This document shows positions 732 through 49,500 of a stretch of DNA of 61,169 nucleotides, piece by piece (position 1 is the first letter of the stretch; each line of letters opens with the position of its first letter). The notes beneath the pieces were generated by a model that made no database searches, was not told the DNA's origin, and saw nothing but the letters and a program-made list of their open reading frames with translations. Source of the stretch: a virus (lineage: Duplodnaviria > Caudoviricetes); IMG/VR virus record IMGVR_UViG_3300031227_000040, positions 1 to 61,169 of that record; one strand, given 5' to 3'. The position numbers were made by a program, and so were the translations under genes.

Positions 732-1316
732 ATGATAGAAACAATAAACTACATAAACTACACAGACTATCTAAAGGAATTGTTACCTTATGTAAAATTC
801 CCAATAGATAAATTGTTACTGCTAGGTTCTGGCGAAATGAATGCAGATGGATGTATAGAAGCAGAAACAAGATTAGCTGTTGAGTGGGCCGATGATTGTC
901 TTCTTAAAATAAAAGATAAGAAAGGTTTGATACCAATTAAGTTTGATGCAAAACATATTACAGAGATACTAGTTCCTAAAAGCTTTGATACTGTTGTGAT
1001 GTTTGATTTCCTTGAGCATCTAGTTAAAAGAGATGGAGAAAAATTATTGAACAATATAGAAAAATACGTTAAGCAACAAATCTTAATGTTCATTCCACTA
1101 GAGAATAGACTGAGAGACAAGGAAGATATAGCTAGGACAGTAAAGGCAAATAAGAACTCTAAGAAAAATAATGTATCTATGGGTAATCATTCCTCTCAGT
1201 GGACGCCAGAGGAAATGGAAGAAAGAGGATTTAAGGTTCTAGTTTCCCCATTCTATCATAAGGAGAGAAACTGGGGCGCTATGATCTGTATTAAGGATTT
1301 GTGGCAAGTGATCTAA
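732..1316 (+). CDS. class I SAM-dependent methyltransferase
   Basis: LLLLGSGE (motif I-like), FDAK, and SFDTVVMFDFLEHL (FD..EH motif typical of Methyltransf_11/23). Confidence 0.7.
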   Translation: MIETINYINYTDYLKELLPYVKFPIDKLLLLGSGEMNADGCIEAETRLAVEWADDCLLKIKDKKGLIPIKFDAKHITEILVPKSFDTVVMFDFLEHLVKRDGEKLLNNIEKYVKQQILMFIPLENRLRDKEDIARTVKANKNSKKNNVSMGNHSSQWTPEEMEERGFKVLVSPFYHKERNWGAMICIKDLWQVI

Positions 1317-1485
1317 TGGCGCGAAGAATTTGTGTGCAGCTAAATTAGGTTGGTCTAACAACTGCTCTGTAACTGAAATACGGGATCACAATAAGCCGTA
1401 GCAGTGAGCGAACGGGCCTGTGACCAAAATTGCAGAACCTGTTTAAGTAAGCTCAAGTTAGGTGGTTCAAATCCACGACTTGCCT
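1303..1485 (+). ncRNA. tRNA-like element with ~120-nt structured insertion in place of the anticodon loop (Cys-like acceptor)
   Basis: 7-bp acceptor GGCAAGT(1303-09)/ACTTGCC(1478-84) plus T discriminator; D-arm TCT-AATGGCGCGA-AGA; T-arm GTGG-TTCAAAT-CCAC. Confidence 0.55.
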
Positions 1486-1497
1486 TTTATAAACAAT

Positions 1498-1848
1498 ATG
1501 CCATATAAAGATATTTCAAAAAGAAAAGAATATCATAAACAATACCATAAGGTGTGGTACAAAAAGAACGGAGTTAAGAGAAGGAAACAGGTTATGGAAC
1601 GTAAGAGGGAAATTAAGAAATGGTTTAAAAAGTTTAAGAAGACATTGAAATGTTCCCAATGTTCTGAATCGGACGCAGCTTGTTTAGACTTCCATCATCT
1701 AGATCCAAAGAAACACGATGACTATATTTCTAACATGATCAGAGATGGAAGAAGTAAAGCAATCATCTTAAAAGAGATTAGTAAATGTATTGTTCTTTGT
1801 TCTAATTGTCACAGAAAGCTTCATTATCGGGAGTCGTCTAAACGGTAG
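1498..1848 (+). CDS. HNH endonuclease (Zn-binding)
   Basis: CSQC...LDFHHLDP...KCIVLCSNCHRKLH. ATG at 1498 is preferred over GTG 1462, which lies inside the tRNA-like T-arm. Confidence 0.8.
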   Translation: MPYKDISKRKEYHKQYHKVWYKKNGVKRRKQVMERKREIKKWFKKFKKTLKCSQCSESDAACLDFHHLDPKKHDDYISNMIRDGRSKAIILKEISKCIVLCSNCHRKLHYRESSKR

Positions 1849-1898
1849 GACGGGTGGTTCTGGACCATTTAATCGGAGTTCGAATCTTCGCTCCCGAG
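1827..1898 (+). tRNA. tRNA-Gln(CTG), CCA not encoded
   Basis: Acceptor TCGGGAG/CTCCCGA; D-arm GTCT-AAACGGT-AGGAC; anticodon arm GGTGG-TTCTGGA-CCATT with CTG at 1860-62; T-arm CGGAG-TTCGAAT-CTTCG. Confidence 0.9.
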
Positions 1899-1914
1899 CT
1901 TAAACATTAAAATT

Positions 1915-10472: not shown

Positions 10473-10584
10473 TAACCAGCACGAGCCGGTATAACCAGCA
10501 CGAGCCGATATAACCAGCACGAGCCGATATAACCAGCACGAGCCGATATAACCAGCACGAGCCGATATAACCAGCACGAGCCGA
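10473..10584. repeat. tandem repeat, 19-bp unit TAACCAGCACGAGCCGATA x ~5.9
   Basis: Copies start at 10473 (one A>G change), 10492, 10511, 10530, 10549 and 10568 (17 nt). Confidence 0.95.
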
Positions 10585-10687: not shown

Positions 10688-10709
10688 GCCCGCCGTGTAC
10701 GAACGAGAA
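10688..10709 (+). promoter_or_regulatory. 22-bp repeated motif copy 1 (candidate phage-specific promoter)
   Basis: GCCCGCCGTGTACGAACGAGAA upstream of ORF 10758. Confidence 0.55.
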
Positions 10710-10757
10710 TCATTCCCTACTAAAGTAAGGTAAGTTAATTAACTAACTAATAAATTT

Positions 10758-10951: not shown

Positions 10952-10973
10952 GCCCTCCAAGTACGAATGAGAA
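10952..10973 (+). promoter_or_regulatory. 22-bp repeated motif copy 2
   Basis: GCCCTCCAAGTACGAATGAGAA upstream of ORF 11021. Confidence 0.55.
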
Positions 10974-11020
10974 CCTTTACTTCTAAAGTAAGTGAATTTA
11001 ATTAACTAACCTAACAAATT

Positions 11021-11561: not shown

Positions 11562-11583
11562 GCCCTCCTAGTACGAACGAGAA
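11562..11583 (+). promoter_or_regulatory. 22-bp repeated motif copy 3
   Basis: GCCCTCCTAGTACGAACGAGAA directly after the terminator. Confidence 0.55.
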
Positions 11584-12025
11584 CCATTTATTCTAAAAAT
11601 AATAAATACTAAAACTTACTTAGGTCGGGTAGGTTATCAATATATATAAAAGGCTAAGCGTATGCGTAATCGATTTTGGTCCTTATTACAAGACAAAAGG
11701 ACAGGCAGGCGCGCTAAAGCCGAGCTAATCCGTGGTGGATTCGGAAGTAATCCTTCAAGACGTTGTTATGCGGCTATTCTGTTCTTTACTATTTGTTTTT
11801 TGTTTGGATTGTATTTGATTGTTAGTGGTTTGATTGTGTTGTTAGGGCTGTGTTGAGCTGTTGTGTGTTGTTTGTTGTTACTCTCCACAGCCCTTCTTGA
11901 CGTCATCTCCACGTCAGGTTAAAAGTTTATTCCCTTAGGTGATGATAAGAAAAATAGGGGGAAATTTTTAGGATCGTGTTAGGAGAGAAGTAAAGGTCGT
12001 TAAACAAGCAAGTTAATTAATGCTT

Positions 12026-12193: not shown

Positions 12194-12219
12194 GTGTTTG
12201 AACAAGCGGATTGTCCGTA

Positions 12220-12461
12220 AAGATATTAAACAGCAAAATGCCGCTGTAAATCGGCATTCTTCCTGTTTAATATCTTAAACGATTTTCAACAGCAAAATGT
12301 ACGACTGGAGTTGTAAACAACTCCTGAGGCACATTCTTCCTGTTGAAAATCTTAGTGCGACTTCAACCACAAAATATTCTTGGCATCGCGATATTTTATT
12401 CAGGAACTTACAGTTCCTAAAACAATATCGCAGGAGCCCGAATATTCTTCTGATTGAAGTC
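12220..12461. ncRNA. array of three long hairpins with conserved CAA-AAT...ATT-CTTC internal motif
   Basis: Units at 12220-12276, 12281-12351 and 12359-12461. The 11-14-bp basal stems differ in sequence but keep their pairing. Confidence 0.6.
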
Positions 12462-12484
12462 TTAATTAGTTAACCTTAGATTGT

Positions 12485-12646
12485 ATGAAGAAAAAAGAAT
12501 TATTAAGCAGATTAAGTGACGTTATTACTGCTTATTCTAAGGATCATACCGACTCAGTGGATAAGGATGAAGAGAAAGAATTTACTAAGAATGTTCGAGC
12601 CTGTGAAGAAGTTGAGAGATACTTTAGAATATCTTATCCTGGATGA
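12485..12646 (+). CDS. hypothetical protein (53 aa)
   Basis: Read manually: MKKKELLSRLSDVITAY...; ATGA overlap with the rtcB start. Confidence 0.6.
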   Translation: MKKKELLSRLSDVITAYSKDHTDSVDKDEEKEFTKNVRACEEVERYFRISYPG

Positions 12647-13839
12647 AAAAAGTAATATCAACAGAAAGGAACCCAATTAAATTGTGGACTGAAGACGTGG
12701 AAGATGGAGCCATGGTTCAATTAAAGAACCTGGCTAATCTGCCCTTCATCCACAAATGGGTCTGTGCTATGCCTGATTGTCATCAGGGTTATGGCATGCC
12801 TATTGGTGGAGTAATCGCCACTAGAAATGTCATCATTCCTAACGCAGTCGGCGTGGACATTGGCTGTGGAATGTGTGCTGTTAAAACCTCCTTAACAGAA
12901 ATAGATACTGAGACTCTTAAGAATATTATGGGGAAAATTAGAGAAGCTATCCCTGTCGGATTTGAACATTATGAAGAGAAACAAGACCAAAGTTTAATGC
13001 CAGAATATAGTAAAGATATGATTAATGGTGTTGTAGTTGCTGAATATAATAATGCTCAAACACAAATAGGAACTCTTGGTGGTGGTAATCATTTTATCGA
13101 GATTCAAAAAGGTTCTGACGGACATATTTGGATTATGATACATAGTGGTTCAAGGAATTTAGGATTTAAAGTTGCTAAACATTATAACGAAGTTGCTAAA
13201 AAATTAAATAAGCAATGGTTTAGTTCAGTTCCTGAAGATCAGGGCCTAGCATTCTTACCAATACAAAGTGATGAAGCTAAGGCTTACTTAAGAGAAATGA
13301 ATTATTGTATAGATTTTGCTTTGGCTAACAGAAAATTGATGATGAATAGAGTAATGGAAATCTTTATAGATAAAATAGATTATTCTTATAAAGGTGGAAC
13401 AGAAACTAAGACTGGATGTGTTGAATTTGAGCCAATGATAAACATCGCTCACAATTATGCTGCTTGGGAAAATCATTTTGGAAAGAATGTTTTAGTCCAT
13501 CGCAAAGGAGCTACGCTTGCCAGGAAAGGAACAATAGGAATTATTCCTGGAAGTCAGGGAACTAAGTCTTATATAGTTGAAGGACTTGGTAATCCAGATA
13601 GCTTTATGTCTTGTTCTCATGGAGCGGGAAGAAGAATGGGAAGAAAACAGGCCAAGAGAGAGCTAGATCTAAAAGCAGAGCAGGATAAGATGAAAGGTAT
13701 TCTTCATTCCGTTAGAGGAGTTGAGCAATTAGATGAAGCTCCCGGTGCTTATAAAGACATAAGTACGGTTATGGGAAATCAAAAGGATTTAGTGAAAGTT
13801 TTAGTCGAACTTTCCCCCTTAGCTGGTATTAAAGGCTAA
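12643..13839 (+). CDS. rtcB: RtcB RNA ligase (3'-P/2',3'-cyclic-P to 5'-OH)
   Basis: MPDCH.GYG.PIG, GVDIGCG, GTLGGGNHF, HSGSR, HNY, HRKGA, SHGAGR, DEAPGAYK. Confidence 0.95.
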   Translation: MKKVISTERNPIKLWTEDVEDGAMVQLKNLANLPFIHKWVCAMPDCHQGYGMPIGGVIATRNVIIPNAVGVDIGCGMCAVKTSLTEIDTETLKNIMGKIREAIPVGFEHYEEKQDQSLMPEYSKDMINGVVVAEYNNAQTQIGTLGGGNHFIEIQKGSDGHIWIMIHSGSRNLGFKVAKHYNEVAKKLNKQWFSSVPEDQGLAFLPIQSDEAKAYLREMNYCIDFALANRKLMMNRVMEIFIDKIDYSYKGGTETKTGCVEFEPMINIAHNYAAWENHFGKNVLVHRKGATLARKGTIGIIPGSQGTKSYIVEGLGNPDSFMSCSHGAGRRMGRKQAKRELDLKAEQDKMKGILHSVRGVEQLDEAPGAYKDISTVMGNQKDLVKVLVELSPLAGIKG

Positions 13840-19397: not shown

Positions 19398-19759
19398 GTT
19401 ATAAACTTCCTCCAAAAGATGAATGGCAAATGGAAAAAGATGATGATATGATTCAAGCATCTGCTTATCGTGATCAAGTCTTTGAAGCTTCTATTGATCC
19501 AAGTATAAGTGAATTGAAAAAAAGAATAGATGAACTTAAAGGTAAGAAACAGTTGACCTATAGAGGATTCTTATTAGAAACTACTTCCATAAAGTCTTTA
19601 GAAGAAATGATAAATAAAACTAAGAGAGGGATTACAATTGCTAAGTTGCAGGGAAGATCTATTGATATACTTAAAGACATTCTTGAAGCTCAGCAAGGAG
19701 TTTTTAAAGAGAAGAGAATAAAGCTCATCCTTGAAGATAAGAAAAATGAGGATGAATGA
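19394..19759 (+). CDS. small helical protein (paralog array member 3)
   Basis: TIAKLQG ... LEAQ..FKEKR. Confidence 0.55.
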   Translation: MSYKLPPKDEWQMEKDDDMIQASAYRDQVFEASIDPSISELKKRIDELKGKKQLTYRGFLLETTSIKSLEEMINKTKRGITIAKLQGRSIDILKDILEAQQGVFKEKRIKLILEDKKNEDE

Positions 19760-36851: not shown

Positions 36852-37534
36852 TGAGAGGCGCGTATGAAATCCTAATCTATATTGATGAAGATAGATATCC
36901 TGTAAGGAAGATGATTCAAACTTTTAAGAGTATACGTTACTTTCTTTCAAAGGGTAGAGCTCCTAAACATTTTAGATCATGGGGATTTCCATCAGTCTCA
37001 ATCTTGTTTAAGAATCCTAGTACTAAGAGGTTCATGAACATAAGAATGTATTACAAGTTTTATCCATGGTGGACTAGGATTTATTTTGGGGTTACTCCTT
37101 CTGAGTTCTTAAAGAATCGATTAGTAAGTCCACATACAAAAGCACTTTTAATTATACAAGCTCCTATAAAGTTTGGAGCGACTAATCAAGCTAGTCTTAT
37201 TAGATCAGCAAGATTCTTTGCCTCTGTAGTTTATCCTTTATATTCTAAGCAATGGAAATCTGCGGTAGCTAAGTATCCTGGGTTATTAGCTGTTCATAAT
37301 AAGACAAGGATTAGTGAGGGGGATTTTCAAACAGTTGGGAAAAGACTTAGTAAAGTCTGTCCATATTTCCAATCTGATTTCCGGAAATTATTTCCGAAAA
37401 AGAACTGGAAATGTTTTGCAATAAGAAGAAAAGGTTTGCATAATTTACAACATTATCCTGATGGCAGGATCGGGCCATCAGATAAGAATATAAGATTCAG
37501 AGTGTTACTTGATAATTTATATGACTCTTTATAA
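36851..37534 (+). CDS. basic hypothetical protein
   Basis: Packed ORF with TAATG overlap. Confidence 0.55.
   Translation: MRGAYEILIYIDEDRYPVRKMIQTFKSIRYFLSKGRAPKHFRSWGFPSVSILFKNPSTKRFMNIRMYYKFYPWWTRIYFGVTPSEFLKNRLVSPHTKALLIIQAPIKFGATNQASLIRSARFFASVVYPLYSKQWKSAVAKYPGLLAVHNKTRISEGDFQTVGKRLSKVCPYFQSDFRKLFPKKNWKCFAIRRKGLHNLQHYPDGRIGPSDKNIRFRVLLDNLYDSL
37382..37396. promoter_or_regulatory. 15-bp palindrome CGGAAATWATTTCCG, copy 3
   Basis: The 19-mer TTCCGGAAATTATTTCCGA is identical to copy 1; ~125 bp upstream of the giant ORF. Confidence 0.4.
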
Positions 37535-40500
37535 TCTATTTAAACAGCAAAGTTTACAACTCCCATCAGTATCAGAACGTAAGAAACTATATTCAGGATA
37601 TAAGCTGGGAGAGGATTATGTAGGTTCAGCTGAACAAAATATTAACTTAACCAAAGCTATTGAAAAAGATGTGCGAGCTTTTGATTCTTTTGTTAAGTCA
37701 TTAAAAACTCCTAAGGCTGTTGAGCCTAAGGAAGATATATTTAAAAAGGAACCGGTATTAGAAAGATCAGATCCTTTTGAGACAAGAGAATTAACTGTTG
37801 GTAAGACAGTTGGTGATTGGTTAAAGGAAAATAAAATAGAGTTTGAGGACTTTCAAAAGTTAAATCCAGCGTATAAGACACCGGATTTTAAGGTTGAGAG
37901 TCCTTTTAAAGTTAGAGTTGTTAAAGCTCCTAAGTTTTTAAAGGATTATCCTGAGCTAACAAATAGAACTGGGATGTCTATTGCACCAATTAAAATGATA
38001 AAGGAACCTTCTGAACTAGAGAAGATGATAAAGCAGACAATCCCTAATCTTTTAAAGGAAGGTATTAGAAAAATTCCTAAGCTTTTTGTTGGAGATAAAA
38101 ATATCTTTCCTCAGATAACTAGTGAGATAGCTAAAGGAATAAAGCAAACTAAAGAATTCTATAAGCAAAAAGATATTGAAAAGAAACTAGCTGATAAAAG
38201 TAAAGCTAAAAGTATTAGTTGGAATCCTAAGTCTATTTTAAAGTCTTTAATTTTACTTACTCAACCGGTAGCTCTTATAGAAAGAAGAGCAGATAAGAAA
38301 AAAGTTGAACTAGAAAAGAAAGAAGTTCAAACTTTAATTCCTACTATTAAAGATATTATAAGTGGAGACTCAAAGGTAGATATTAGTCGTAAAGAACAAT
38401 TAATACTGATTCAACCTAAAGAAGATAATCTTGGAGTCGAAGGAAATGCTGCTAGGTTAAAGAGATCTTTAAAAGAAACTGCTGACTTAAAGGAGGATTT
38501 TCTCCAAAAGAATATCACCTTAGTTTCTAGAGGAGATGAGATCACTGGGTTTACAGATGAGAAAGGAAAATATGAAGACTTCTATGAGTTAGATAAAGAT
38601 GTTAAAGAAGCAGAAGCGATGAAGGTAGAGGTAGAAGCACTTACTCAAAAGATAGGAGGGAATACTGCTAAGCTTCAGACTAACTCCGATGAATCTCTTA
38701 AGTGGCAAACTGAAATGTTTAACAATCTTGAGGAACGAACTGAAGTTATCTTCAGTATTATTTCAGATCCTGATATAATTAAAGACCCTTCCTTACTTGC
38801 TAAAATCTTTTCAATTTTCCCCTCACGTTCTAGCTTCATGTTAGGAGTTACTAAGGCCCCCGAAGAAACATTAATTCAAACTCCAGAGGTTAAAGAACTT
38901 ATCTCTGAGCTGGAAGGATTATATACTGAAAGAATGAAAGAGATTTTAGATGTTGCTTCTAGTGTCCAAGCTGGAGATGAAGCTGCTTCCACAAAATTCT
39001 GGGAGGGTCTTACAGAAAAGGAAATGGAAAATCTTGAAAGAGTAATGACTCTCAATAGATTGATTGGAGAGAAGGATGATTCAACTAAGATCCAAAAGAC
39101 ATGGGAACTAATGGAAGATCCTTATTTTCAGAAAGCCCTTTTAGATAGTTATGAATATCTTTCTGAAGAACAGAAAAAATTCTTAAAGCCTATAGTTGAA
39201 GTAGCTAGGTTAAATGCTGAGAGAGTTATTTTATGGCCACTAGTAAATAAAGAACTAGAATCTCAATCAGAAGAAGTAAAGAATTTGATAACTGAATATC
39301 AAAGTTTAATTGATAGTATTAATAGAAGGGTTGTAGTTCTTGGAGATCCTTCAGTCTCTGGGACTCTTGCTCATAATCTAGTTGAACTTAGTGAGACTGG
39401 TCAAGATTATTATAGAAGTATAAAACTATCTGAATTAAAGAGTGAAGCTGATAGATCAGAATTTCTAGAGACCTATGAGAGAGCTAGAACTTTTAAATCT
39501 ATGGCTAAAGCTAGAATGAATTTTCTACTTGGCCTTGGGAAAAAAACTGAGTGGCAACCTTGGAAAGCTTATAAGCAATCTTTATTCCCTGGAGGTTTTC
39601 AAACTTACTTAAGAGAAGGTGGAATTGGAATGGATCTTCCTCGCATAGTTAGTATCCCAATTTATCATGCTGCTAAATTTGGTTGGAAGACAATGATAAA
39701 AATGTGGGATACTGGTTTAGCTGCTGTCAGTACAGGAATTATAGCTGCTTTAGATATTACTTCTTCAGGATTCAAAGCTATTATAGAGAACCTTGGAGCT
39801 TTGTATGGGTATGAAGAGAAAGATGTTATTAATCAAACTACATTAGGGGAGTATCCATTTAAGGAAGATAATTTTCTTAGTAAGATGTGGAATGTTGCTT
39901 CTTTTAATGTATTCAATTTACCTGATGCTTCTAGATATAGTGATATCAAATCTATCCCAGTTGGAGAAAGATTTCTTCCTGAGAATATAGGTAAGTGGGT
40001 TGATTTTAAAAGAGGTGGATATATTCCACAAGTTTTTGCTTCTCAATATCATCCTCGTGCTTATGAAAAAAAGTTGATTGTTGAAACTTCTAAACCATTT
40101 GATCATCTTCCTAAAGAATTTATGGGAGTAAGAGAGGAATTTTTACAGTTAAATGGTTTAACTGAAAATTCAGTTTTAAAAATGGGACAAAGAATTATGG
40201 TTCCTACAGAGGCTTTTGTTTCTCCACGTAATTTACTTGATCCTAAGTTAGTAAACAAATTAGAGCAATCTCTTAATGGTAGATTAAGTTTGTTAGCTTT
40301 TGATTTTCTTGGATGGGTTAAGTTAGATCCACTTACAGTTTTTTGGAGTGGTATTGGTTCCACTTCTAAATCGATAATGAAACATATTTCCCCTAAGTAT
40401 GCTAAGCAATTAAAGACTAGGAAGGATCTGTTAGCTTTTTCTAAACAGTATTCTAAGTCTACTGATATCGCTGAGGATTTAGCTAGCTTTATTACAGGAG

Positions 40501-43500
40501 ATGCTGTAGCAGAAGGATTTTTAAAGGCAACCTTCCCGGGAATGATAGAAGCCAGAAAAGCTTTAACCAGCGTTAGAGTTCTTGATAATTTAGATCCACG
40601 AATTTTAAACCAAATAGAAAAGCTTTCACAAAAAGGAGAACTTTGGAGAAGTGGATTCTTCTCTAAGACTTTTCTTGATGATGTAAAAGGTAAGATTGGA
40701 AAAGAAAAGTTTAAAGTTTTTAAAGAAGGTTTAGAAGGATTAATGTTAAAAGGTAAACTTCCTGAAGCTACTAATAATATTGTATGGGAAGTGTTGAATC
40801 AATATGGTGGTGATGGATTTAAAATGATACAGAAAATAATTAAGGGTACTCCAAAAACATTTACAAATGAATTAGGGAAATTAGTAAAGAGTTATCACAC
40901 TGCTGAGATGAGACAATACGTACTACGTAAAAATTTAGATGATGCTTTAAAAGGATTAGCTCCATCTGAAAGAAATGCTGTATTAACTCTTTCTCAAAAA
41001 ACTCCTGCTCAAATTACATTAGAGCTTTCTCGAATGAAAAAGCTTGGAAAAGGAATCTCTTTTAAGGGTAAGTTATTTCAGAGAGCTGAGTTTAATAGTA
41101 AATCAATTGAGAAAATTAAAAGGGCTGTTGCTGAAACTAAAAAGAATCTATCTGAGATTGAGAGTATAATCTTAAAAGGTGACTCTATTATTAAATTACC
41201 AAATGGAAGTAAGATTGTATTTAAATTTAAGGATGGGGGAAAGAACTATTATGATCCGATCAGTAAAGTTTTTGTAATTGAGAAGCCAGGAAACATGGGA
41301 GTTAGTGGAGTCCTTAATGATTTCTATAGTCAGGTTGGAAAACAAGCAACTAAATATTTAGATAATACTACTGCTTATTTCTCTGAGTCAACTCTTTTAA
41401 AAAGATATTACCTCTCTTATGAAGATATTGTAAAGGAGATTAAGAATGGGAATATTGGACTAGGCCATAGATTAACTGATACTCTAGTTAAGTTTAATGG
41501 TGAGGAAATAAAGCTAAAGAAATTCCTAGCAGAAATTAAACAATTAGCTAAAGAAGAGCCTGGTCTTCCTTTTAAAGAGAGAGCATGGAAAAAGATTAGT
41601 AAGAATTTACCCAATGAGGGGAGCTTTTCATCTAAGAAATGGAGTTTTGAAATTCCAGTTAATACTAAAAATTCCTCCTCAGTAGTTGAAGCGATGTTAA
41701 AACATATTAAGTTTGATGTTCTAACCAATAATAAATGGGAAGGAATGAGTGGGAGTGAGTTTAGAACTATGTTAGAAAAAGTTGCTAAGATAGATAATGC
41801 TTTCATTCCTACTACTGTAAGTAAAACAGTTTATACTACTCTTCCTTTTCAGTATGGACAAGCTAGTAAGGCTCTTAAGGGCTATTCAGCCTGGGGAGAG
41901 ATGCCAACTAGGCAAGCCATGCAGAAACTTTTAAAGGAAGAATCTAAAAAGATAATCAAGGTTACTGATCCTAAAGACTTTAGAGCTTATTTTGAAGAGG
42001 CTATGAGTCTATACTTTATGAAGAAGTATGATCCTACATCTTATGTTAAATATAAGAGTGATATTTTTCAGATGTTTGAGAATCTTACTCCTCAAAAATT
42101 AAATCAGTATTTAAATTCTCATCAAAAGATTGCTTTAATGATCTTTAATAATGAGAAGAAAGGTATTCAATCTTTACCCCCTTCACTTATTTCTTTATTA
42201 GAAAAGTTTACTGGCAATGCTGATGATGTTAAGAATGCATTAACTAAGTTTTTAAAAGGAAGAATAGAGGCTGAGAAGATTCAGATATTAAAAGCTGAAA
42301 AGATTAGAAAGTTAAATGATTTTAGAGTTGGTAAGATAAGGAATCCAGAAGCTGAATGGCAACTATATAAAAAGAAGTGGTCCCTTGACCTAGCAATTAA
42401 TCCTAAGAGTGAAGAATTTTCTGTTCTCCATGATATTTTAAAAGAAGCTCCTATCTTGAATTTTAAAAAGACTCCTTATTTAGTTCCTAAGAAATGGATT
42501 ACTAGAGCTGAAGATAATTACTACTTAAGAAGAGGGAGATCTGTTGCTGAACATGAAGCTTTATTCTTAGATATTCAACAAGGTGGAAGACAAAAGCTTG
42601 CTCAAATCTTATCTAAGAAGATTCCAAAGACAAAAAGAATTGTAATCATGGAAGATTTAAGTAAGTCTATTAAGAATGTTAAAGCTCAAACCTATACGTA
42701 TTTACCTTCTAATACTAGAAAAGAAATAGATAAAGAAGTTGAAAGAATAGTTTCTAAACTTGGAAGAGAAGGTTACTTCGTGATTCCAGAAAGTCATAAG
42801 CTGTCTAAGTATGCTTATAATAAGATGTCTGAAGTTTTGCCTCCTGGCAAAGTAAGCTTACTTAAAAGACATGGAGCAGGGAAAGATAGATTTGCAATGA
42901 GTGAAGCTAAGGCCGTTAATACACTAAAGGAACTAGGTCAGTATGAAAATTATACAATGTGGGGGGCAATTTCTGAGAAAGATATTTTTGAATTCTGGAG
43001 CAGAGTTCCTGAATATATTCCTAGGTTTAAATACTATCATGGTACAGGTAAAAAGTTTACTGCTCCTATTGAAGGAATGAAAACAAAGGGAACCTTTACC
43101 TGGATGCCTGATCTCAGAGCAAAGAATTTAGATTTCAGAAGAGAGATACTTCCTTTTATAAAAAAGAGAAAGAATACAAATGCTAAGTTATTGGCAGAAT
43201 TTATTTCTTCTCCTACTGGAGCTGTAGATGATCTTTCTGTTTCTGCAATTGCTCAAGCTGTAGAAGTCTTAGAAAATAAGAAAAGAATTTTAAATGGAAT
43301 TTTCGACTCTAAGAGTTTCTATATTCAAAAATCTAAGAGTGGAAAGAAACTAATAAACTTTAAAGGAAAAGGAAAACTTGATGATCTAGACTTGGATTCT
43401 ATTATCTATTTTTCAAATGGTAAGACTGTTGGGAATATTTCTGATTCAATTAGGAAGAGAGCAAAGAAGTTTATCTATGAACAGAAGTATTTAGATAGAT

Positions 43501-46500
43501 TAGATGATGCGCAGTGGCCGGCCAACTTAACTCTTGGAGATGTGAGAGCTGATTTACGTCAAGCATTTAATCTACATAAGTATTCTGATAGAGATCAATT
43601 TGCAAAAGTCTTTAAAGAAGTTTTAAATTCTAAGGGGAAAAATGATTCAGCTATCAAGAAGTTAATACGACAAATGAAACTAGACGATCTTATTGAGCTC
43701 CCAAAGATGGAAAGAGATTTCTATGTTCTTATGTCTGATTTAAATGAAGCAGCTCAACGTGGAAATTTTCTTTCAGTATTAAGAAGTGAAGCGGATGATG
43801 CTTATAATAATTTAAATAATTTAAAAGTTGCTTTAAAAAGATTAAAGAAACTAGATAAGCAAGGTAATAAATATATCTATTCAGTTAAGCATCCTAGTAT
43901 TGAGGGAGAAACAGCAACTATAATGAAAGCTTATTTTGATAAAGGTACCGGGACTTTAAAGAAGATAGAGAAAGAACTTCCAAAAACTGGAGGCTTGAAT
44001 AATTTTTCAAATAAGTTTATTGCTTCTAAGATTGAACTTAAGAAGGTTGAAGGTTCAGTCCAGGTTAAAGTTAAAGATGCAATAACAAAATTAAAAAGTA
44101 ACATAACTTCATTAGAAGAATATGTTCCTAGAGTTGAGAGTATGAATAAAGTCTTTAGTATGTTTGATTTTGATTCATTTAAAATTAGAAACGTAGATGA
44201 TTTCATAGATGCTATCTGGGATATTTCTAGAAGTACTCCTTCTGAGAAAGCTCTTGCTTTAATTGGTGATTGGCGTGGTAAAGGAATTAAGAAGGCTCAG
44301 GGGGCTGGTAGGCTTGAATACAAGCACGTAGATGTTGAAAAGGTTAAGTTAGTTGATGCTAAGATCAAACCTTTACTTACAAAAGATGTTACTAAATTTA
44401 TAGAACTTCATCAAATTACTGCTCCTAAGTTTATAATAACAGATAAAAGTACTCAGGTTTCCTTAGACATATTAAAATCATTAAAAGAAGTTAAAGCAGA
44501 TTTAGTTATCTTTGTTGATTTAAAAGTACCTAAGAATGTTCTGGATAAAATAAAAAGAAAAGCTATTATTGATTCTTCTAAATTCTTTCCTGCTAAGTCT
44601 TTAATAGCAAATAAAGAAGAGGTTGCTCTAGCTAGAAGAGTTCGTGATGCTTTTTATAAGAACCAACGTGTAGTAATTATAGGGGGAAAAGCTAAGAAGG
44701 TTAAAGAGAGATTGATAGATTTATTCCCCCCTGTAGAAGCTGAAGCTTATAAGGGACTCTTTCATATAGATAGAATGCCTAAGATAAGAAAGAAAAAATA
44801 TCCTGGTCCAACATATTTAAAAAGAAAAGGAAAGACTCCAATTCAAACAGGAATGGATAAGGAGGCTAAAGAGATTTATTCAAAAACTATTCCTTCTAAA
44901 TCATTAGCTGATTGGGATAATTACTTAAAGAAACCTTCAGTACCACGTTTGGTTGAAGAAATTCCTGCAGAAAGAACCAGGAGAATAACTGATATTATTT
45001 TAGATAAGCTAGAAGATTCAATAGAACAGTCTCCTGATTTTAAAGAGTTCTGGATTAAGAAAGTAAAGAGGGTAATAGGTTCTAAAGTAAAACAAGTTAA
45101 AGTAAAGTTACCTGAGATTATAAACTTTAATGATGTTGAGAATCTTAAGTTGTTAGATGATGCTGGTATTAAATTATATGTTGCTAAGACTGATACTCTA
45201 AGGATGGAATCTCTCTTACAGTTAAAGAAAGAAAAGATTTCAATTAGACTGATTTCAGAAGCTGATGCTCTTAAGTTAAAGTATTCTTATGCTAAAGGAG
45301 TTACTGGGAAAACTGAACTTTATGAACGTCTTGATTTCTTTAAGAGGAAAATTCATTCAGAGATTAAATCAGATGTTAGAAATTTCTTTAAAGAGTATAA
45401 GAAAATAATTCCATTCTCCACTGTGAGTATGGGAGATCTTAGAAAGAATACTTATGAATGGCTAACTTCTGTTTATAAAAGTAAGGGGAATAAAGCATTA
45501 ATTAAAGAGTGGAAAGAAACTGCAGTTAAGATGAGAAAGACTTATGAGGAACAGTTACGTGCAATTATCATTAAAGAGTTTGGTACTCTAAATAATAAAG
45601 CAGCAAGACATATCTTTACTAGAAAGCTATCAAAGTTTGATGAGCTAATTAAAATGGCAGAGGAGTTAAAGCTTGGGTTTGGTGCTCCAACTAAAATAGG
45701 ATTTGTTTCATTAATCTCAAAGCTTAGAGCCGGACTTAGTACAGCTTTTAATTGGATAATTAAAAAGTCTGAAGGCCCTCTTTCTTTAGGAGAAGAGGGA
45801 ATGTTGTATACTATAAAAGGATTAGACATGGGACTTAAAGCAACAGGACAGGTTGTTAGTGGTTCATTTAGAGCATTAAGAACCTTTTGGATATGGAATG
45901 TATTGTTCTTAAGACCGGCTTGGCATATAAATAATCAATTGGGAGATACTCTTCGTGGGACTATGGTTTCTAAACAAGTTCGTTATATGATGGATTCGTT
46001 TAGGACTTATGGATTAATTTCTGCCTCCTATCTTTCTTTCTTAGGCAGAGATATTAAATCTTTAGTCTGGCCATTGTATAGATATTTCCTTCCAGCTAAG
46101 GTAAGAAAGTATATTAAGGTTACAGATCCATTAGTTAAGACTAAAAAACAAATACTTAAACAGTTAAACTTAACTCTTAGACCTAATACAGCTAAGAATA
46201 CTTATGCTTTAAAGAAGATTTTAAGTCAGTATGAAGTTACATTTAACCCTAGGACTATTAAATTGATGAATACTAAGGGCCCTCAGGGATGGACTTCTAA
46301 GAAACTCTTTAAAGATATGACCAGTCCTAAGTACTGGCAAAGAAATTATAAGATTCCTATGTCTACTGTTAATCAAAGTACTCATATGGGTTTGCTTACT
46401 GCTTTAGAAGATCCTATATTAGGAGCTAAGATGTGGAAGTTAATGAAAGAAACTGGGATTGGAAGTGCCTTAAGAAAGCGTGGAGCTTTAATGAAACTTG

Positions 46501-49500
46501 ATTTAGTTTTGTTTGCAAATATGAATGAGAAGATGAGAAGATTGTTATTGCTTGATAATCTAATGAAGACCAAAGCAATGTCTTTAGCTAAAGCATCTAT
46601 GAAGGTTCGTTCTTATCTCTTTGACTATTCCCATTTATCTAGAGCAGAAAGAGTATTCAGATTAGTCTGTCCTTTCTGGTCTTTCTCACGATTTAGTTTT
46701 GAGTTATATTCTAAAATGCTTTTAGAAATGGGTTCTAAGTTTTATTGGGCCGGACAGTTTTTTATAAAGTCTTTAGAAGAAGCATCAGCAGGTTTACCTG
46801 AGCAATTTAAAAATAGAGTTAAGATTCCATTTACAGATAGCTTTGCTTATCTTCCTTTTGGTATCATAGACTATTGGAGTTTTCTAGCAAATCCCCGTGA
46901 AGAGTTGATGCGATTTATAGACAACCCTCAACAGTTACCTTTTGGTTTAGGGTGGGACCCAGGATTAGCTTTACTCTTGAAAAATCTTACGGGGAAAAAA
47001 TGGTATCAAACTTCTAGAATTTTAAAGGATCATACTGGCTGGACAGATGAAGAAGTTAAAGCAGAGATGGAGAGAGATAATGTTCCTAACATAAATATGA
47101 CTATTGATTTTCCAACCATGCTTACTTCTTTTATACCAGTTATGGATTTAGCTGGAGTAATTTTCCCCTCCTTATTTAAAGTAGATCAAGCAACTGTAGG
47201 GGATGAATTATCTTTAATAGGTTCCAAACCAATTAGATCAGCATTTAAATTCTTTGGTTTTAATATAATGAAAGCAGAACCATGGATGGAATTTTCTGCT
47301 ATTTATGATAGAACTGCTCCTCATCTTAGACCGTTTTTAATAGAGCAGACTAAGAAAGAAGGTACTGGAATCTACGAAGCATGGGAGAATATGATTGCTA
47401 AGAGTCATATGATTAAAATGTTGAATGCTAGAACCAAAGATGAGAAAGATAAAGCTGCTCATGATATGGAGAAGTTTATTGTAGTCTCTAAGTTTTACGA
47501 GTTAGAAGAAAAACAAAAAGGTTTAGGAGATAGATGGATAGAATTTAAAGCTAGGGAAGGAAACTTAACACCTAAGGCCTTAATGAAAGAGCATTGGGAT
47601 TATGACATTGATGATAGTTCTTATAGAAGAGAACAGAAAGCTAAGTTTGAAAAGATAAAAGCTAAGTCTATTTTAAAACTAGTGGAGAAAGAATACGTGG
47701 CTAAAATTTCTCCTACTACTGAAGCTGTTCTTGATGTTCTTAATATTCCTCATCCAGATGTTGGTTTTGCAGAAGTATTTGAAACAGAAGTTTTTGATCA
47801 GTATGGAACCCCTAGGTTTGATACTGTTGAGGAAGCTATTGAAAAGATTAAGGAGCTTAAGGAAAGATATAGCGTTCCAAATTTAATCCCCCAAGAGATT
47901 AGAAGGAGAATGGATAAGGAAACATTAGAGTGGAAGGCTAGAAGTTGGGAGGCTAAAGAGTTAAAGAAGATAGATGATTCTAAATATTATGCGAAGATGA
48001 GTGTAGCTTACTCATATATTCCTGAGAATGTTGAGACCCTATCAGCTGAAGCTCAACGTTTAGCTTTTGCTAAGCGTGATGCTTATATTGTTAAGATGCC
48101 GGTTGAGTATCAGAAGAGATGGAAAGAATCTCAGCCAGAATATATTATTCAGTTTAGAGAACTTCTCAATACTGCTTATGAAAAGATAGGAGGAATTTAT
48201 GCCTCAACACAAGAAGATCCTTATAACAAAAATTACTATGTAGAGTTCCAAAAACTTCCTCAATGGATTCGGAATGTTCATTTTGTTTATCATCCTGAAG
48301 ATATTAATGTCATTCCATTTAAAGCAAAGTTATTTGAATTCTTCCAGGAAGATAGAGCCCAGCATTTAAAAGGTTATAGTTCTAACTTAAGGAATGATTA
48401 TTATTTTTCAAATGATTCTTTAGCAGTAAAAGCAAGACAGGACATGGATGCAGAAGAGTTAGCATTCCAGAAACTTAAAGGAGAATTAAGTACTAAGATT
48501 GATCAAAGCTATAAGTCCGGGTCATTGGTTGGATACTATACTCTGTTTTCAACAATGCCAAAGACATGGCAAGATCATTACTGGGAACTCCAGGAAAACT
48601 CAGTTAAGAGTGGTTGGATGAAACAGGAGGATTATGATCTTTCTAAGGAGTGGTTTGAATTTAATTCTAAAGTTGAAAAGGCTAGGATTCAAGATAATGA
48701 AAATCTTAAGAATGGAATTTTTTCTTCCTTAGAAGAAAAAGTCTGGAGTGATTCTAAGTGGGATAAGGTTAAAGCTTGGTATGAAAAGAATGAAATGAAT
48801 AAAGGATACGTAGAATATTCTAAGCTTAAATTTAAATTCAATAAGGAAACTAAAGAGGAAGGTCCCCAGAATTATTATAAGTTTATAAATGAATTACCTG
48901 GAGAAGCTAAGTGGTATTACTATCGTCACCACCTTGATTCTATTAAGTATATAGATTTTATGGCTGAGTATACTGACCTTCTTGTTAATGAAGATAATAC
49001 AGATGCTTCTGATTTCCTCTGGGATGAAAAGAATAAGGTAGCTAGAGAAGCTTTCTTCTCATCTCATCCTAATGAAAAGTATTACATAGAATATAGAGAG
49101 CGAATTTTCGCCCTGTCTAAAGATGCGGGGGAATATTATGATTTAATTTTAAATGCCCCCCAGAGATTTCAAGATATTTATTTCCGTAAACATCCTTTAG
49201 CTAAGTTATATTTAAAAGAAGTTCAAAGATATTTTAAAGCAATTACTCTTGATACTGAGAACAAGAGTAAAGGAATTAAAAGCAAAGAAGCTAAAGAAGT
49301 TTTTGAAAGCAAGAGTTTTCAGAAAGCTCTTAAGGTTTGGGATAGGGTTGATAGTGGAGTCTTTGCTTACTATACCGGGTGGTATGAAATTTCTAAACAA
49401 GTTGATGAGAAAGGTATTGATAAATGGGGAGAAATCTATGAAGACTATATTGCTACTCATCCTGCTTTTAGAAAGCAACTTGAAAAAAGACAACCAGAAA

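What the first reader, a model, noticed from the sequence alone, without database searches (positions are those of the whole stretch)
1303..1485. tRNA-like RNA whose anticodon arm is replaced by a ~120-nt folded insert
Seen in sequence: a perfect 7-bp acceptor (GGC.../...GCC + T73, the usual tRNA-Cys identity pattern), a D-arm with GG, and a T-arm with TTCAAAT. The anticodon stem ATTTG/CAAGT continues into a long imperfect helix (AGCT/AGCT, AAAT/GTTT, AGGTT/AACCT) that encloses further stems (TCTGTAA/TTGCAGA, TCACA/TGTGA). TGCA occurs near both ends of the insert. The insert is short for a group I intron, has no G3-U70 pair as tmRNA does, and its bulges are not a canonical BHB. Inference: an intron-containing tRNA-Cys (possibly an RtcB substrate) or a tRNA-mimic decoy against anticodon nucleases.
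Basis: partly seen in the sequence, partly recalled or inferred. Interest (0 to 1): 0.7.

Follow-up and report, generated by a model that had tools for sequence, protein, structure and literature searches.

The report
Phage tRNA-like gene with large insert
A phage gene keeps the outer parts of a tRNA but carries about 125 unrelated bases where the anticodon arm should be; many phages turn out to hold similar, unannotated genes of unknown role.

Summary
The tRNA-like frame at 1303-1485 is real. It has a perfect 7-bp acceptor stem, a T-arm and a D-arm with GG. It fills the gap between an ORF and an HNH gene next to tRNA-Gln. Such a frame arose in only 3 of 400 shuffled windows.

No tool calls it a tRNA. 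No excision gives a tRNA more often than a shuffled-insert control does. It is not a group I intron, tmRNA, YrlA or an archaeal BHB intron.

I found no homolog, and one related phage locus lacks the whole block.

The architecture is common elsewhere. I found 10 more cases in RtcB phages and 28 among 121 hits to a Leu-type D-arm pattern, one of them in cultured Bacteroides phage BS-TP2. None is called at default settings. Related frames carry unrelated middles. Phage RtcB is not linked: 0 of 30 insert-bearing records against 2 of 50 canonical ones.

Best reading (0.45): a tRNA-framed small RNA, closest to T4 RNAC/RNAD and the Lak-phage 'enigmatic tRNA introns', with unknown payload function. 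A decaying tRNA gene (0.25) or a spliced tRNA-Cys (0.17) are not excluded.

The parts
1303..1309 (+). acceptor stem, 5' strand (GGCAAGT)
   Evidence: Perfect 7-bp complement of 1478-1484. The last 4 codons and stop of ORF 732-1316 overlap it. Relatives of that ORF end 4 residues earlier.
1312..1327 (+). D-arm-like hairpin: TCT(A)/(A)AGA, loop ATGGCGCG with GG. It is preceded by G8 A9 (1310-1311).
   Evidence: G at position 8 instead of the usual U (the usual base is recalled).
1328..1458 (+). Middle module in place of the anticodon arm. The closing stem ATTTG/CAAGT encloses about 121 bases. AGCT at 1338-1341 and 1450-1453. TGCA at 1335-1338 and 1431-1434.
   Evidence: Not more stable than shuffles (z -0.74). 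No Rfam match. No relative found.
1461..1477 (+). T-arm: (G)GTGG TTCAAAT CCAC(G). The outer pair is a G.G mismatch.
1478..1485 (+). acceptor stem, 3' strand (ACTTGCC) plus unpaired T. No CCA is encoded; a run of T follows.
1498..1848 (+). HNH endonuclease gene lying between the element and tRNA-Gln. Its last 22 bases overlap the tRNA-Gln gene.
   Evidence: phrog_3106 2.4e-23. Weak Pfam HNH match. Pieces of it recur in other contigs of the same lakes with other flanks.
1827..1899 (+). Canonical tRNA-Gln(CTG), the only tRNA called in the window.
   Evidence: ARAGORN. Rfam RF00005 50.9 bits.

Best explanation
1303-1485 is a phage gene for a tRNA-framed small RNA, not a decoding tRNA. It keeps the parts of a tRNA that processing and stabilising enzymes recognise: a 7-bp acceptor stem, a T-arm, and a D-loop with GG. 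The anticodon and variable region is replaced by about 125 nt of non-conserved, weakly structured sequence. It sits in a small islet of tRNA plus homing endonuclease: element, then HNH, then tRNA-Gln.

Inferred mechanism: it is transcribed with its neighbours. RNase P and RNase Z-type enzymes trim its ends and CCA is added, because the frame mimics a tRNA. It then accumulates as a stable RNA whose middle is the payload. What the payload does is unknown.

What is shown: the frame, its non-random nature, its setting, the lack of an anticodon arm, and the existence of many phage genes with the same architecture.

What is inferred: transcription, processing, stability and any function in trans.
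For: 1. The frame is not chance. It appeared in 3 of 400 shuffled windows and exactly fills an intergenic gap next to a tRNA gene.

2. It is not a normal or spliceable tRNA.
- Rfam gives nothing at E<=10.
- ARAGORN finds nothing, with or without introns allowed.
- Excision scans do no better than shuffled inserts.

3. The same architecture recurs.
- The strict scan of RtcB-phage DNA gave 4 hits in 811 kb, against 0.0 per shuffle.
- It gave 11 hits in 1.32 Mb, against 0.33 per shuffle. Of these, 5 are true and 6 are artefacts of tandem tRNAs.
- One phage (G015) holds 3 paralogs with the same acceptor, D and T parts and unrelated middles. It has no tRNA over Rfam's cut-off.

4. A Leu-type D-arm pattern in viral contigs gave 121 matches.
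- 28 loci are insert-bearing (99-221 nt), 63 have canonical length, and 24 have no 3' partner.
- In 9 elements that share one acceptor, the 3' 25 nt are 89% identical. The middles are 52% identical, against 50% for shuffled partners.

5. One member is 100% identical to an unannotated gap in cultured Bacteroides phage BS-TP2.

6. There is a precedent. T4 RNAC and RNAD are stable RNAs of unknown role in the T4 tRNA cluster, beside the homing endonuclease segB (passages of PMC3014915 and PMC9697503). RNAC ends in a T-arm plus a 7-bp acceptor-like stem.
Against: - There is no transcript evidence of any kind.
- No homolog of this element was found, so neither conservation nor covariation can be shown.
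- The one related locus found lacks the element.
- The frame has defects a working tRNA mimic might not tolerate: G8, a G.G mismatch in the T-stem, and a 2-3-nt variable loop.
- The middle is not measurably structured. Across 37 such elements the mean z is only -0.67.
- The 'class' was defined by my own scanner. The Leu set was picked with a pattern that fixes 20 of the 5' bases, so conservation on the 5' side is by construction.
- The window's frame is not Leu-type, and it has no sequence similarity to any other member.
Confidence: 0.45

Rival explanations
1. A decaying tRNA gene: a former phage tRNA (perhaps tRNA-Cys) disrupted by an insertion or rearrangement in its anticodon arm. The homing-endonuclease activity next door may have caused it. 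It is now non-functional and has not yet eroded.
For: - Defects in the frame: G8, a G.G mismatch in the T-stem, a 2-3-nt variable loop.
- No homolog anywhere.
- The block is absent from the related locus L022.
- The insert is no more stable than shuffles.
- The AGCT direct repeat at both ends of a 112-nt segment, with imperfect inverted ends, could be a scar of insertion.
- An HNH endonuclease lies directly downstream.
Against: - The perfect 7-bp acceptor and the good T-loop are retained.
- The same architecture recurs in many phages, with frames conserved over unrelated middles. That argues for selection in those cases, though not necessarily in this one.
- There is no second copy of the insert in the window, and no insert-less allele in 4 laid runs.
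Confidence: 0.25
2. An intron-containing tRNA-Cys(GCA). A protein endonuclease cuts out about 112 nt from the anticodon loop, and RtcB (12643-13839) or the host's RtcB joins the halves.
For: - A T followed by GCA lies where positions 33-36 would be. T73 and an A13.A22 mismatch resemble tRNA-Cys, by recalled rules only. 4 of 5 phage tRNA-Cys in my loci end in T.
- The window encodes RtcB (phrog_1075, 1.3e-123).
- One other element, L137:7115-7222, is a clean tRNA-Thr(TGT) with a 36-nt insert at 37/38 in a near-canonical bulge-helix-bulge.
- Lak megaphages were reported to carry tRNAs with 'enigmatic introns', with insert-less alleles (passages of 10.1101/356790).
Against: - No excision yields a tRNA beyond the shuffled control.
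- The anticodon stem would be 4 bp plus a U.U pair, and the variable loop 2-3 nt.
- The bulges are 5-4-5 and of the opposite hand to a BHB. This is my reading; the BHB geometry is recalled.
- No EndA in the window, nor in 49 related records.
- The host looks bacterial.
- Phage RtcB is not linked with insert-bearing frames: 0 of 30 against 2 of 50.
- No group I or self-cleaving ribozyme match.
Confidence: 0.17
3. A tRNA-mimic decoy. The frame soaks up a host defence or toxin that recognises the tRNA body (acceptor end or elbow). The missing anticodon arm keeps the RNA out of translation.
For: - The architecture keeps the body and drops the decoding part.
- Phage tRNA islets with homing endonucleases have been tied to escape from tRNA-cutting defences. 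I saw this only as the abstract of PMC13096335 in the listing.
- The phage carries RNA-repair capacity (RtcB).
Against: - Nothing here tests binding.
- Anticodon nucleases need the anticodon loop (recalled), which is absent.
- A decoy does not explain why related frames carry unrelated middles of 49-88 nt.
Confidence: 0.08
4. Chance: unrelated sequence that happens to look like the ends of a tRNA.
For: Acceptor plus T-arm alone occurs about 0.5 times per shuffled window. There is no homolog.
Against: With the D-arm added, only 3 of 400 shuffles score. The element also fills an intergenic gap beside a real tRNA.
Confidence: 0.02

Closest known systems
T4 RNAC and RNAD (species 1 and 2 stable RNAs)
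   Same: - They are small stable phage RNAs longer than tRNAs (139 and 119 nt).
- They are encoded inside the tRNA cluster beside a homing endonuclease.
- RNAC ends in a T-arm plus a 7-bp acceptor-like stem.
- Their role is unknown (passages of PMC3014915 and PMC9697503).
   Different: - There is no sequence similarity (nhmmer over loci that include T4).
- In RNAC the tRNA-like part is the 3' two-thirds, behind a 5' extension. It is not a frame around a central insert.
- T4 has no RtcB. Its neighbouring endonuclease is GIY-YIG, not HNH.
Lak megaphage tRNAs with 'enigmatic introns' (10.1101/356790; passages only, its Table S6 not seen)
   Same: They are oversized phage tRNA genes with inserts that Rfam does not classify. 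Their hosts are Bacteroidota, and the window's phage also looks Bacteroidota-like (inference).
   Different: - There, the isotype and anticodon were assigned and insert-less alleles were aligned.
- Here, no anticodon arm can be recovered and no insert-less allele was seen.
Archaeal/eukaryal protein-spliced tRNA introns (BHB motif, EndA plus RtcB)
   Same: The insert lies in the anticodon region, and an RtcB gene is in the genome.
   Different: - There is no 3-4-3 BHB; the bulges are 5-4-5 and of the opposite hand.
- There is no EndA.
- The tRNA-Gln is of bacterial type (U1-A72; the rule is recalled), and the nearest RtcB relatives are bacterial.
Group I introns in bacterial tRNA genes
   Same: They are inserts in the anticodon loop of a bacterial-type tRNA gene, often with homing endonucleases nearby.
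   Different: There is no Rfam match at all, group I family included, even at E<=10. At 112-125 nt the insert is well below the usual size (recalled).
tmRNA and YrlA/Y RNAs (tRNA-mimicking RNAs)
   Same: They have an acceptor and T-arm mimic joined to a non-tRNA module. YrlA genes lie near RtcB in some bacteria (passages of PMC4201824).
   Different: - tmRNA: there is no G3-U70, no ARAGORN or Rfam call, and the element is far shorter.
- YrlA: the order is permuted (T-arm, closed acceptor, D-arm), and it has a Ro60 partner. There is no TROVE gene in the window or in 17 relatives.
Engineered 'tRNA scaffold' for RNA expression (recalled, not looked up)
   Same: The design is the same: the anticodon arm is replaced by a cargo RNA, so that the cell processes and stabilises it like a tRNA.
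   Different: That design is man-made. Nothing here shows that the natural element is processed or stable.

Membership tests
tRNA (Rfam RF00005 / ARAGORN) | Score at or above the family threshold (29 bits), or an ARAGORN call | tested here: not met
   No RF00005 match at 1303-1485 even at E<=10. No ARAGORN call. tRNA-Gln at 1827-1899 is the positive control in the same calls.
tRNA (Rfam RF00005 / ARAGORN) | 7-bp acceptor stem, T-arm with a TTCRANY loop, D-loop with GG | tested here: met
   There are flaws: a G.G mismatch in the T-stem, a 3-bp D-stem, and G8.
tRNA (Rfam RF00005 / ARAGORN) | 5-bp anticodon stem with a 7-nt loop, and a 4-5-nt or long variable region | tested here: not met
   131 nt lie between the D-arm and the variable region. 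Only 2-3 nt lie between the closing stem and the T-stem.
Protein-spliced (BHB) intron-containing tRNA | Bulge-helix-bulge (3-4-3 or relaxed) at the two splice sites | tested here: not met
   The only symmetric motif is 5-4-5 and of the opposite hand (sequence). The relaxed search is uninformative, because 58% of shuffles score.
Protein-spliced (BHB) intron-containing tRNA | Excision leaves a canonical tRNA | tested here: not met
   0 of 1050 and 1 of 798 excisions score at the default threshold. Shuffled inserts give 0-17.
Protein-spliced (BHB) intron-containing tRNA | A splicing endonuclease (EndA) is available | tested here: not met
   PF01974 is absent from the window and from 49 RtcB-phage records. 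The host genome is unknown.
Group I intron in a tRNA gene | Match to the group I covariance model / conserved catalytic core | tested here: not met
   No Rfam match of any kind at E<=10 over 1295-1495.
tmRNA | G3-U70 pair, tag reading frame, ARAGORN or Rfam call | tested here: not met
   Pair 3-70 is C-G. No tmRNA by ARAGORN, relaxed settings included, or by Rfam.
YrlA / bacterial Y RNA | Rfam match; permuted tRNA-like domain; Ro60 (TROVE) gene nearby | tested here: not met
   No Rfam match. The order is unpermuted. No TROVE in the window.
T4 RNAC/RNAD-like stable RNAs | Encoded in a tRNA islet next to a homing endonuclease, with a tRNA-like 3' end | tested here: met
   Window. T4.
T4 RNAC/RNAD-like stable RNAs | Sequence relatedness | tested here: not met
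   nhmmer at E<=10 over 3.5 Mb, T4 locus L144 included, gave no match.
T4 RNAC/RNAD-like stable RNAs | Accumulates as a stable processed RNA | not testable with these tools
   The 12 listed runs are all DNA.
Lak-type phage tRNA with 'enigmatic intron' | Oversized tRNA gene with an assignable anticodon, and insert-less alleles in relatives | tested here: not met
   No anticodon arm. No joint or insert-less contig in 4 runs. The one relative lacks the whole gene.
   The window element is the only one of its sequence type.

The most novel reading that the evidence does not exclude
Phages, notably those of Bacteroidota, carry a widespread and unannotated family of tRNA-framed RNAs. A conserved tRNA body, competent for processing and perhaps for charging, carries an interchangeable and fast-evolving payload in place of the anticodon arm. 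These would be natural counterparts of the engineered tRNA scaffold. The window's element would be a member with a Cys-like body. T4 RNAC/RNAD and the Lak 'enigmatic introns' would be faces of the same phenomenon.
Probability: 0.3. Interest if true: 0.8.

Novelty: new variant of a known kind. Interest (0 to 1): 0.55.

Why it matters
If these frames are expressed, standard tRNA finders and Rfam miss a whole class of phage small RNAs. About a quarter of the Leu-type D-arm matches I sampled in viral contigs were of this kind (28 of 121).

That would give a handle on two old loose ends: the unknown role of T4 RNAC/RNAD, and the 'enigmatic introns' of megaphage tRNAs. The identical copy in cultured Bacteroides phage BS-TP2 makes the question testable at the bench.

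For this window alone the gain is smaller. It is a single, orphan, somewhat defective example, and its function cannot be inferred.

Tried and rejected
**Searches for a homolog of the element**
- blastn against cultured phages found no match.
- A 24-mer of the T-arm and acceptor in viral contigs gave 0 hits.
- BLAST in 17 RtcB-phage records gave only 19-24-nt chance hits.
- nhmmer over 2.2 Mb and then 3.5 Mb of loci found nothing.
- A 19-mer in metagenome contigs gave 2 hits, both inside unrelated coding DNA.
- There is no second copy in the window.

**Sequencing runs**
- No RNA holder is listed; the 12 listed runs are all DNA, from salt lakes.
- Contigs of 4 runs were identical where they cover the stretch. 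There was no joint and no indel.

**Relatives of the flanking genes**
- The single-protein scans found none.
- An alignment of 4 relatives of ORF 732-1316 found one locus, L022. It has no element.

**Excision and isotype tests**
- The ARAGORN excision scans looked promising for other elements: 6 of 9 were called with -i. But shuffled middles score just as often, so I do not count those calls as evidence of introns.
- Similarity of the two halves to 187 phage tRNAs gave scores near zero, with Cys not on top.

**Other tests**
- The BHB-like motif search was not discriminating.
- TROVE and EndA were absent.
- The neighbours of 10 Leu-type elements are nin-region genes (NinB, NinG/Rap, DUF2303-like) and unknowns. 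No shared informative partner emerged.
- The promoter and terminator scan gave nothing beyond chance near the element.

**Literature**
- Searches for phage tRNA introns with RtcB found no paper linking them.

**Not used**
- The earlier-findings tool was not open.
- Structure prediction, complex prediction and the protein atlas were not used.

Full report
**Setting**

The window is a 61,169-base IMG/VR virus record, estimated 59% complete. Near-identical DNA is held by 12 salt-lake metagenome runs, and none of them is RNA.
- Genes run on the + strand. They include a large terminase, a major head protein and RtcB at 12643-13839 (phrog_1075, 1.3e-123).
- The terminase is only about 26% identical to those of Bacillus phages of the SPO1 kind.
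- Only 4 of 49 ORFs have a Shine-Dalgarno-like motif.
- The nearest cellular RtcB genes (54-63% identity) are all bacterial. By their titles, most are Bacteroidota, with some Desulfobulbales.
- The one canonical tRNA, tRNA-Gln(CTG) at 1827-1899, has U1-A72. By recalled rules that is the bacterial form.
- I infer a bacterial host, probably Bacteroidota.

**The observation**

- The acceptor stem is a perfect 7 bp, followed by an unpaired T.
- The T-loop is TTCAAAT on a stem of four good pairs plus a G.G.
- The D-hairpin is TCT/AGA, with an A.A and a loop holding GG.
One A is counted in two of them.
- The element fills the only gap between ORF 732-1316 and an HNH endonuclease gene at 1498-1848.
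- ORF 732-1316 runs four codons into the acceptor stem. Its three relatives end just before that point.

How likely the frame is by chance:
- Acceptor plus T-arm alone appears about 0.5 times per shuffled window.
- The full frame with a D-arm appeared in 3 of 400 shuffles.

So the frame is real.

The 'folded insert' is not supported:
- The whole element has z -1.55.
- The insert alone has z -0.74.

**What it is not**

- Rfam gives no match of any family here, even at E<=10. That covers tRNA, tmRNA, group I introns, self-cleaving ribozymes and YrlA.
- ARAGORN finds no tRNA, with or without introns allowed, and no tmRNA.
- Pair 3-70 is C-G.
- The window has no TROVE gene and no EndA gene.
- The bulges around the AGCT/AGCT helix are 5 and 5 nt. 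On each strand they lie 5' of the central helix. As I recall the geometry, that is the mirror image of an archaeal bulge-helix-bulge.

**Is it a spliceable tRNA?**

- I removed every interval in a wide range and asked ARAGORN for a tRNA. That gave 0 of 1050 variants and 1 of 798 at the default threshold.
- The same scan on copies with a shuffled middle gave 6, 0, 2, 0, 3 and 17.
- So there is no sign of a hidden anticodon arm.
- A T followed by GCA, T73 and A13.A22 recall tRNA-Cys (recalled rules). But the two halves are no closer to phage tRNA-Cys than to other tRNAs.

**Relatives**

No relative of the element turned up:
- in cultured phages;
- in viral contigs;
- in 17 RtcB-phage records;
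- in 3.5 Mb of fetched loci;
- in metagenome contigs, where the two hits were chance matches in coding DNA.

Contigs of four other runs are identical where they cover the stretch, with no insert-less form. The one related locus found through the upstream protein (71% identity) goes straight from that gene to an unrelated one. It has no element, no HNH gene and no tRNA.

The block of element, HNH and tRNA-Gln is therefore variable. Conservation of this particular sequence cannot be tested.

**The same architecture elsewhere**

I wrote a scanner for a 7-bp acceptor, a T-arm with G53-C61 and a D-arm with GG, spanning 100-500 nt.

Results in RtcB-bearing virus records:
- The records were the window, 17, and 79 loci. 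At least 3 of the 79 repeat earlier records.
- The scanner gave 4 hits in 811 kb, against 0.0 per shuffle.
- It gave 11 hits in 1.32 Mb, against 0.33 per shuffle.
- Of those 11, six are artefacts that span tandem canonical tRNAs. I dropped them. Five are true.
- nhmmer added two paralogs in one phage, G015.
- That makes 11 elements in 9 records, 103-238 nt long. ARAGORN at default settings calls none of those it was run on. Rfam's tRNA model reaches threshold for one of them, L013 (35.1 bits, with a 72-nt insertion where the anticodon arm belongs).
- The three G015 copies share the acceptor, D and T parts and have unrelated middles. That 98-kb record has no tRNA above Rfam's cut-off.
- One element, L137, is different. 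It is a clean tRNA-Thr(TGT) with a 36-nt insert at 37/38, in a near-canonical bulge-helix-bulge.

**A broader sample**

Several frames had a tRNA-Leu-like D-arm, so I scanned viral contigs for that 20-base pattern.

It gave 121 matches:
- 63 loci held genes of canonical length.
- 28 loci held insert-bearing frames of 99-221 nt.
- 24 loci had no matching 3' end. Most of these look like truncated tRNA-Leu 5' parts of the kind seen at integration sites. That is judged by eye.

Among nine elements that share one acceptor:
- The 3' 25 nt are 89% identical.
- The middles are 52% identical, against 50% for shuffled partners.
- The 5' identity is fixed by the search pattern and counts for nothing.

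The middles are only weakly structured. Mean z is -0.67 over 37 elements, and 3 are below -2. They yield 'spliced tRNAs' no more often than shuffled middles do.

One member is 100% identical to an unannotated gap between gp31 and gp32 of cultured Bacteroides phage BS-TP2.

**RtcB**

All of the first set was chosen through RtcB, so it says nothing about linkage. In the Leu-type set, RtcB (PF01139) is found as follows:
- in 0 of 30 records with insert-bearing frames, and in 0 of the 6 that are at least 90% complete;
- in 2 of 50 records with canonical tRNA-Leu (I searched 50 of the 63).

A phage-encoded RtcB is thus not a partner of this architecture. A host RtcB remains possible.

**Known neighbours**

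- T4 encodes RNAC (139 nt) and RNAD (119 nt) in its tRNA cluster, next to the homing endonuclease segB. RNAC ends in a T-arm and a 7-bp acceptor-like stem, with only a 17.5-bit match to tRNA-Sec. Their roles are stated to be unknown (passages of PMC3014915 and PMC9697503).
- Lak megaphages of Prevotella were reported to carry tRNAs with 'enigmatic introns', said there to be the first in phage tRNAs (passages of 10.1101/356790). I could not see their Table S6.
- YrlA RNAs mimic tRNA but are permuted and pair with Ro60 (passages of PMC4201824).
- I found no paper that links phage tRNA inserts to RtcB or explains them.

**Verdict**

The insert's proposed fold is not supported, and neither is the intron or RtcB reading.

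My estimates:
- 0.45: a tRNA-framed small RNA whose frame serves processing and stability, and whose payload has an unknown role.
- 0.25: a decaying tRNA gene.
- 0.17: a protein-spliced tRNA-Cys.
- 0.08: a decoy.
- 0.02: chance.

The wider result is that such frames are frequent and unannotated in phage DNA, with conserved frames and unrelated middles. That is the more interesting lead. It rests on my own scanner and on an ascertained sample, so it needs a proper census and RNA data.

Noticed in passing
L145-L261 (viral contigs); e.g. L190:5195-5293, L208:11773-11910, L193:8144-8347: 28 of 121 matches to a tRNA-Leu-type D-arm pattern are insert-bearing tRNA frames of 99-221 nt. Nine share one acceptor (AGTCAGG) and T-arm but have unrelated middles of 49-88 nt. 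Most end in A73.
   Followed up: partly
L262:2528-2634 (Bacteroides phage BS-TP2, PQ571275.1, about 19550-19656): A 107-nt Leu-type insert-bearing frame lies in the unannotated gap between a DUF2303/YfdQ-like gene and NinG/Rap in a cultured phage. It is 100% identical to metagenomic locus L191.
   Followed up: partly
L055:2277-2412(-), L054:6488-6595(-), L055:13874-14035(-): One 98-kb phage (G015) has three paralogous Leu-like frames with different middles and no tRNA above Rfam's cut-off. One copy ends in an encoded ACCA after an 8-bp stem.
   Followed up: partly
L137:7115-7222: A clean tRNA-Thr(TGT) with a 36-nt insert at 37/38 in a near-canonical bulge-helix-bulge (4-bp CTTG/CGAG, bulges of 3 and 4 nt). 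It lies inside a phage tRNA cluster. Lak phages were reported to have an intron in the same isotype. No EndA in that record.
   Followed up: partly
L013:4824-4969: A 146-nt Leu-like frame ends about 27 nt before the start of RtcB on the same strand. It is the only one that Rfam's tRNA model scores above threshold (35.1 bits).
   Followed up: partly
L222:7916-8098: The 183-nt insert-bearing frame seems to hold a second T-arm-like motif inside its insert. This recalls the Lak report of an intron that itself looks like a tRNA.
   Followed up: no
window 10473-10584: 5.9 tandem copies of a 19-nt unit (98% matches) in a 700-nt non-coding stretch. It looks like an iteron array or origin.
   Followed up: partly
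window 10697-10711, 10961-10975, 11571-11585: A 15-nt motif (GTACGAAYGAGAAYC) occurs three times, against 0 in 100 shuffles. Two sites lie about 50 nt upstream of a small ORF start; the third lies about 80 nt upstream of an ATG. It may be a phage-specific promoter or regulatory site.
   Followed up: partly
window about 12195-12470: Three tandem units of similar design (outer stem AACAG/CTGTT, CAA, a variable inner hairpin, CTTC) lie in the non-coding stretch upstream of the RtcB region. They may be a small structured-RNA family. No Rfam match.
   Followed up: no
window 1827-1848: The HNH ORF's last 22 bases overlap the 5' part of the tRNA-Gln gene.
   Followed up: no
window 37509-51026: A single ORF of 4505 residues.
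   Followed up: no
L145, L157, L169, L174, L179, L185, L231, L234, L239 and others: Many viral contigs hold only the first 38 or so bases of one tRNA-Leu, followed by unrelated DNA. They look like attachment-site fragments at prophage ends.
   Followed up: no
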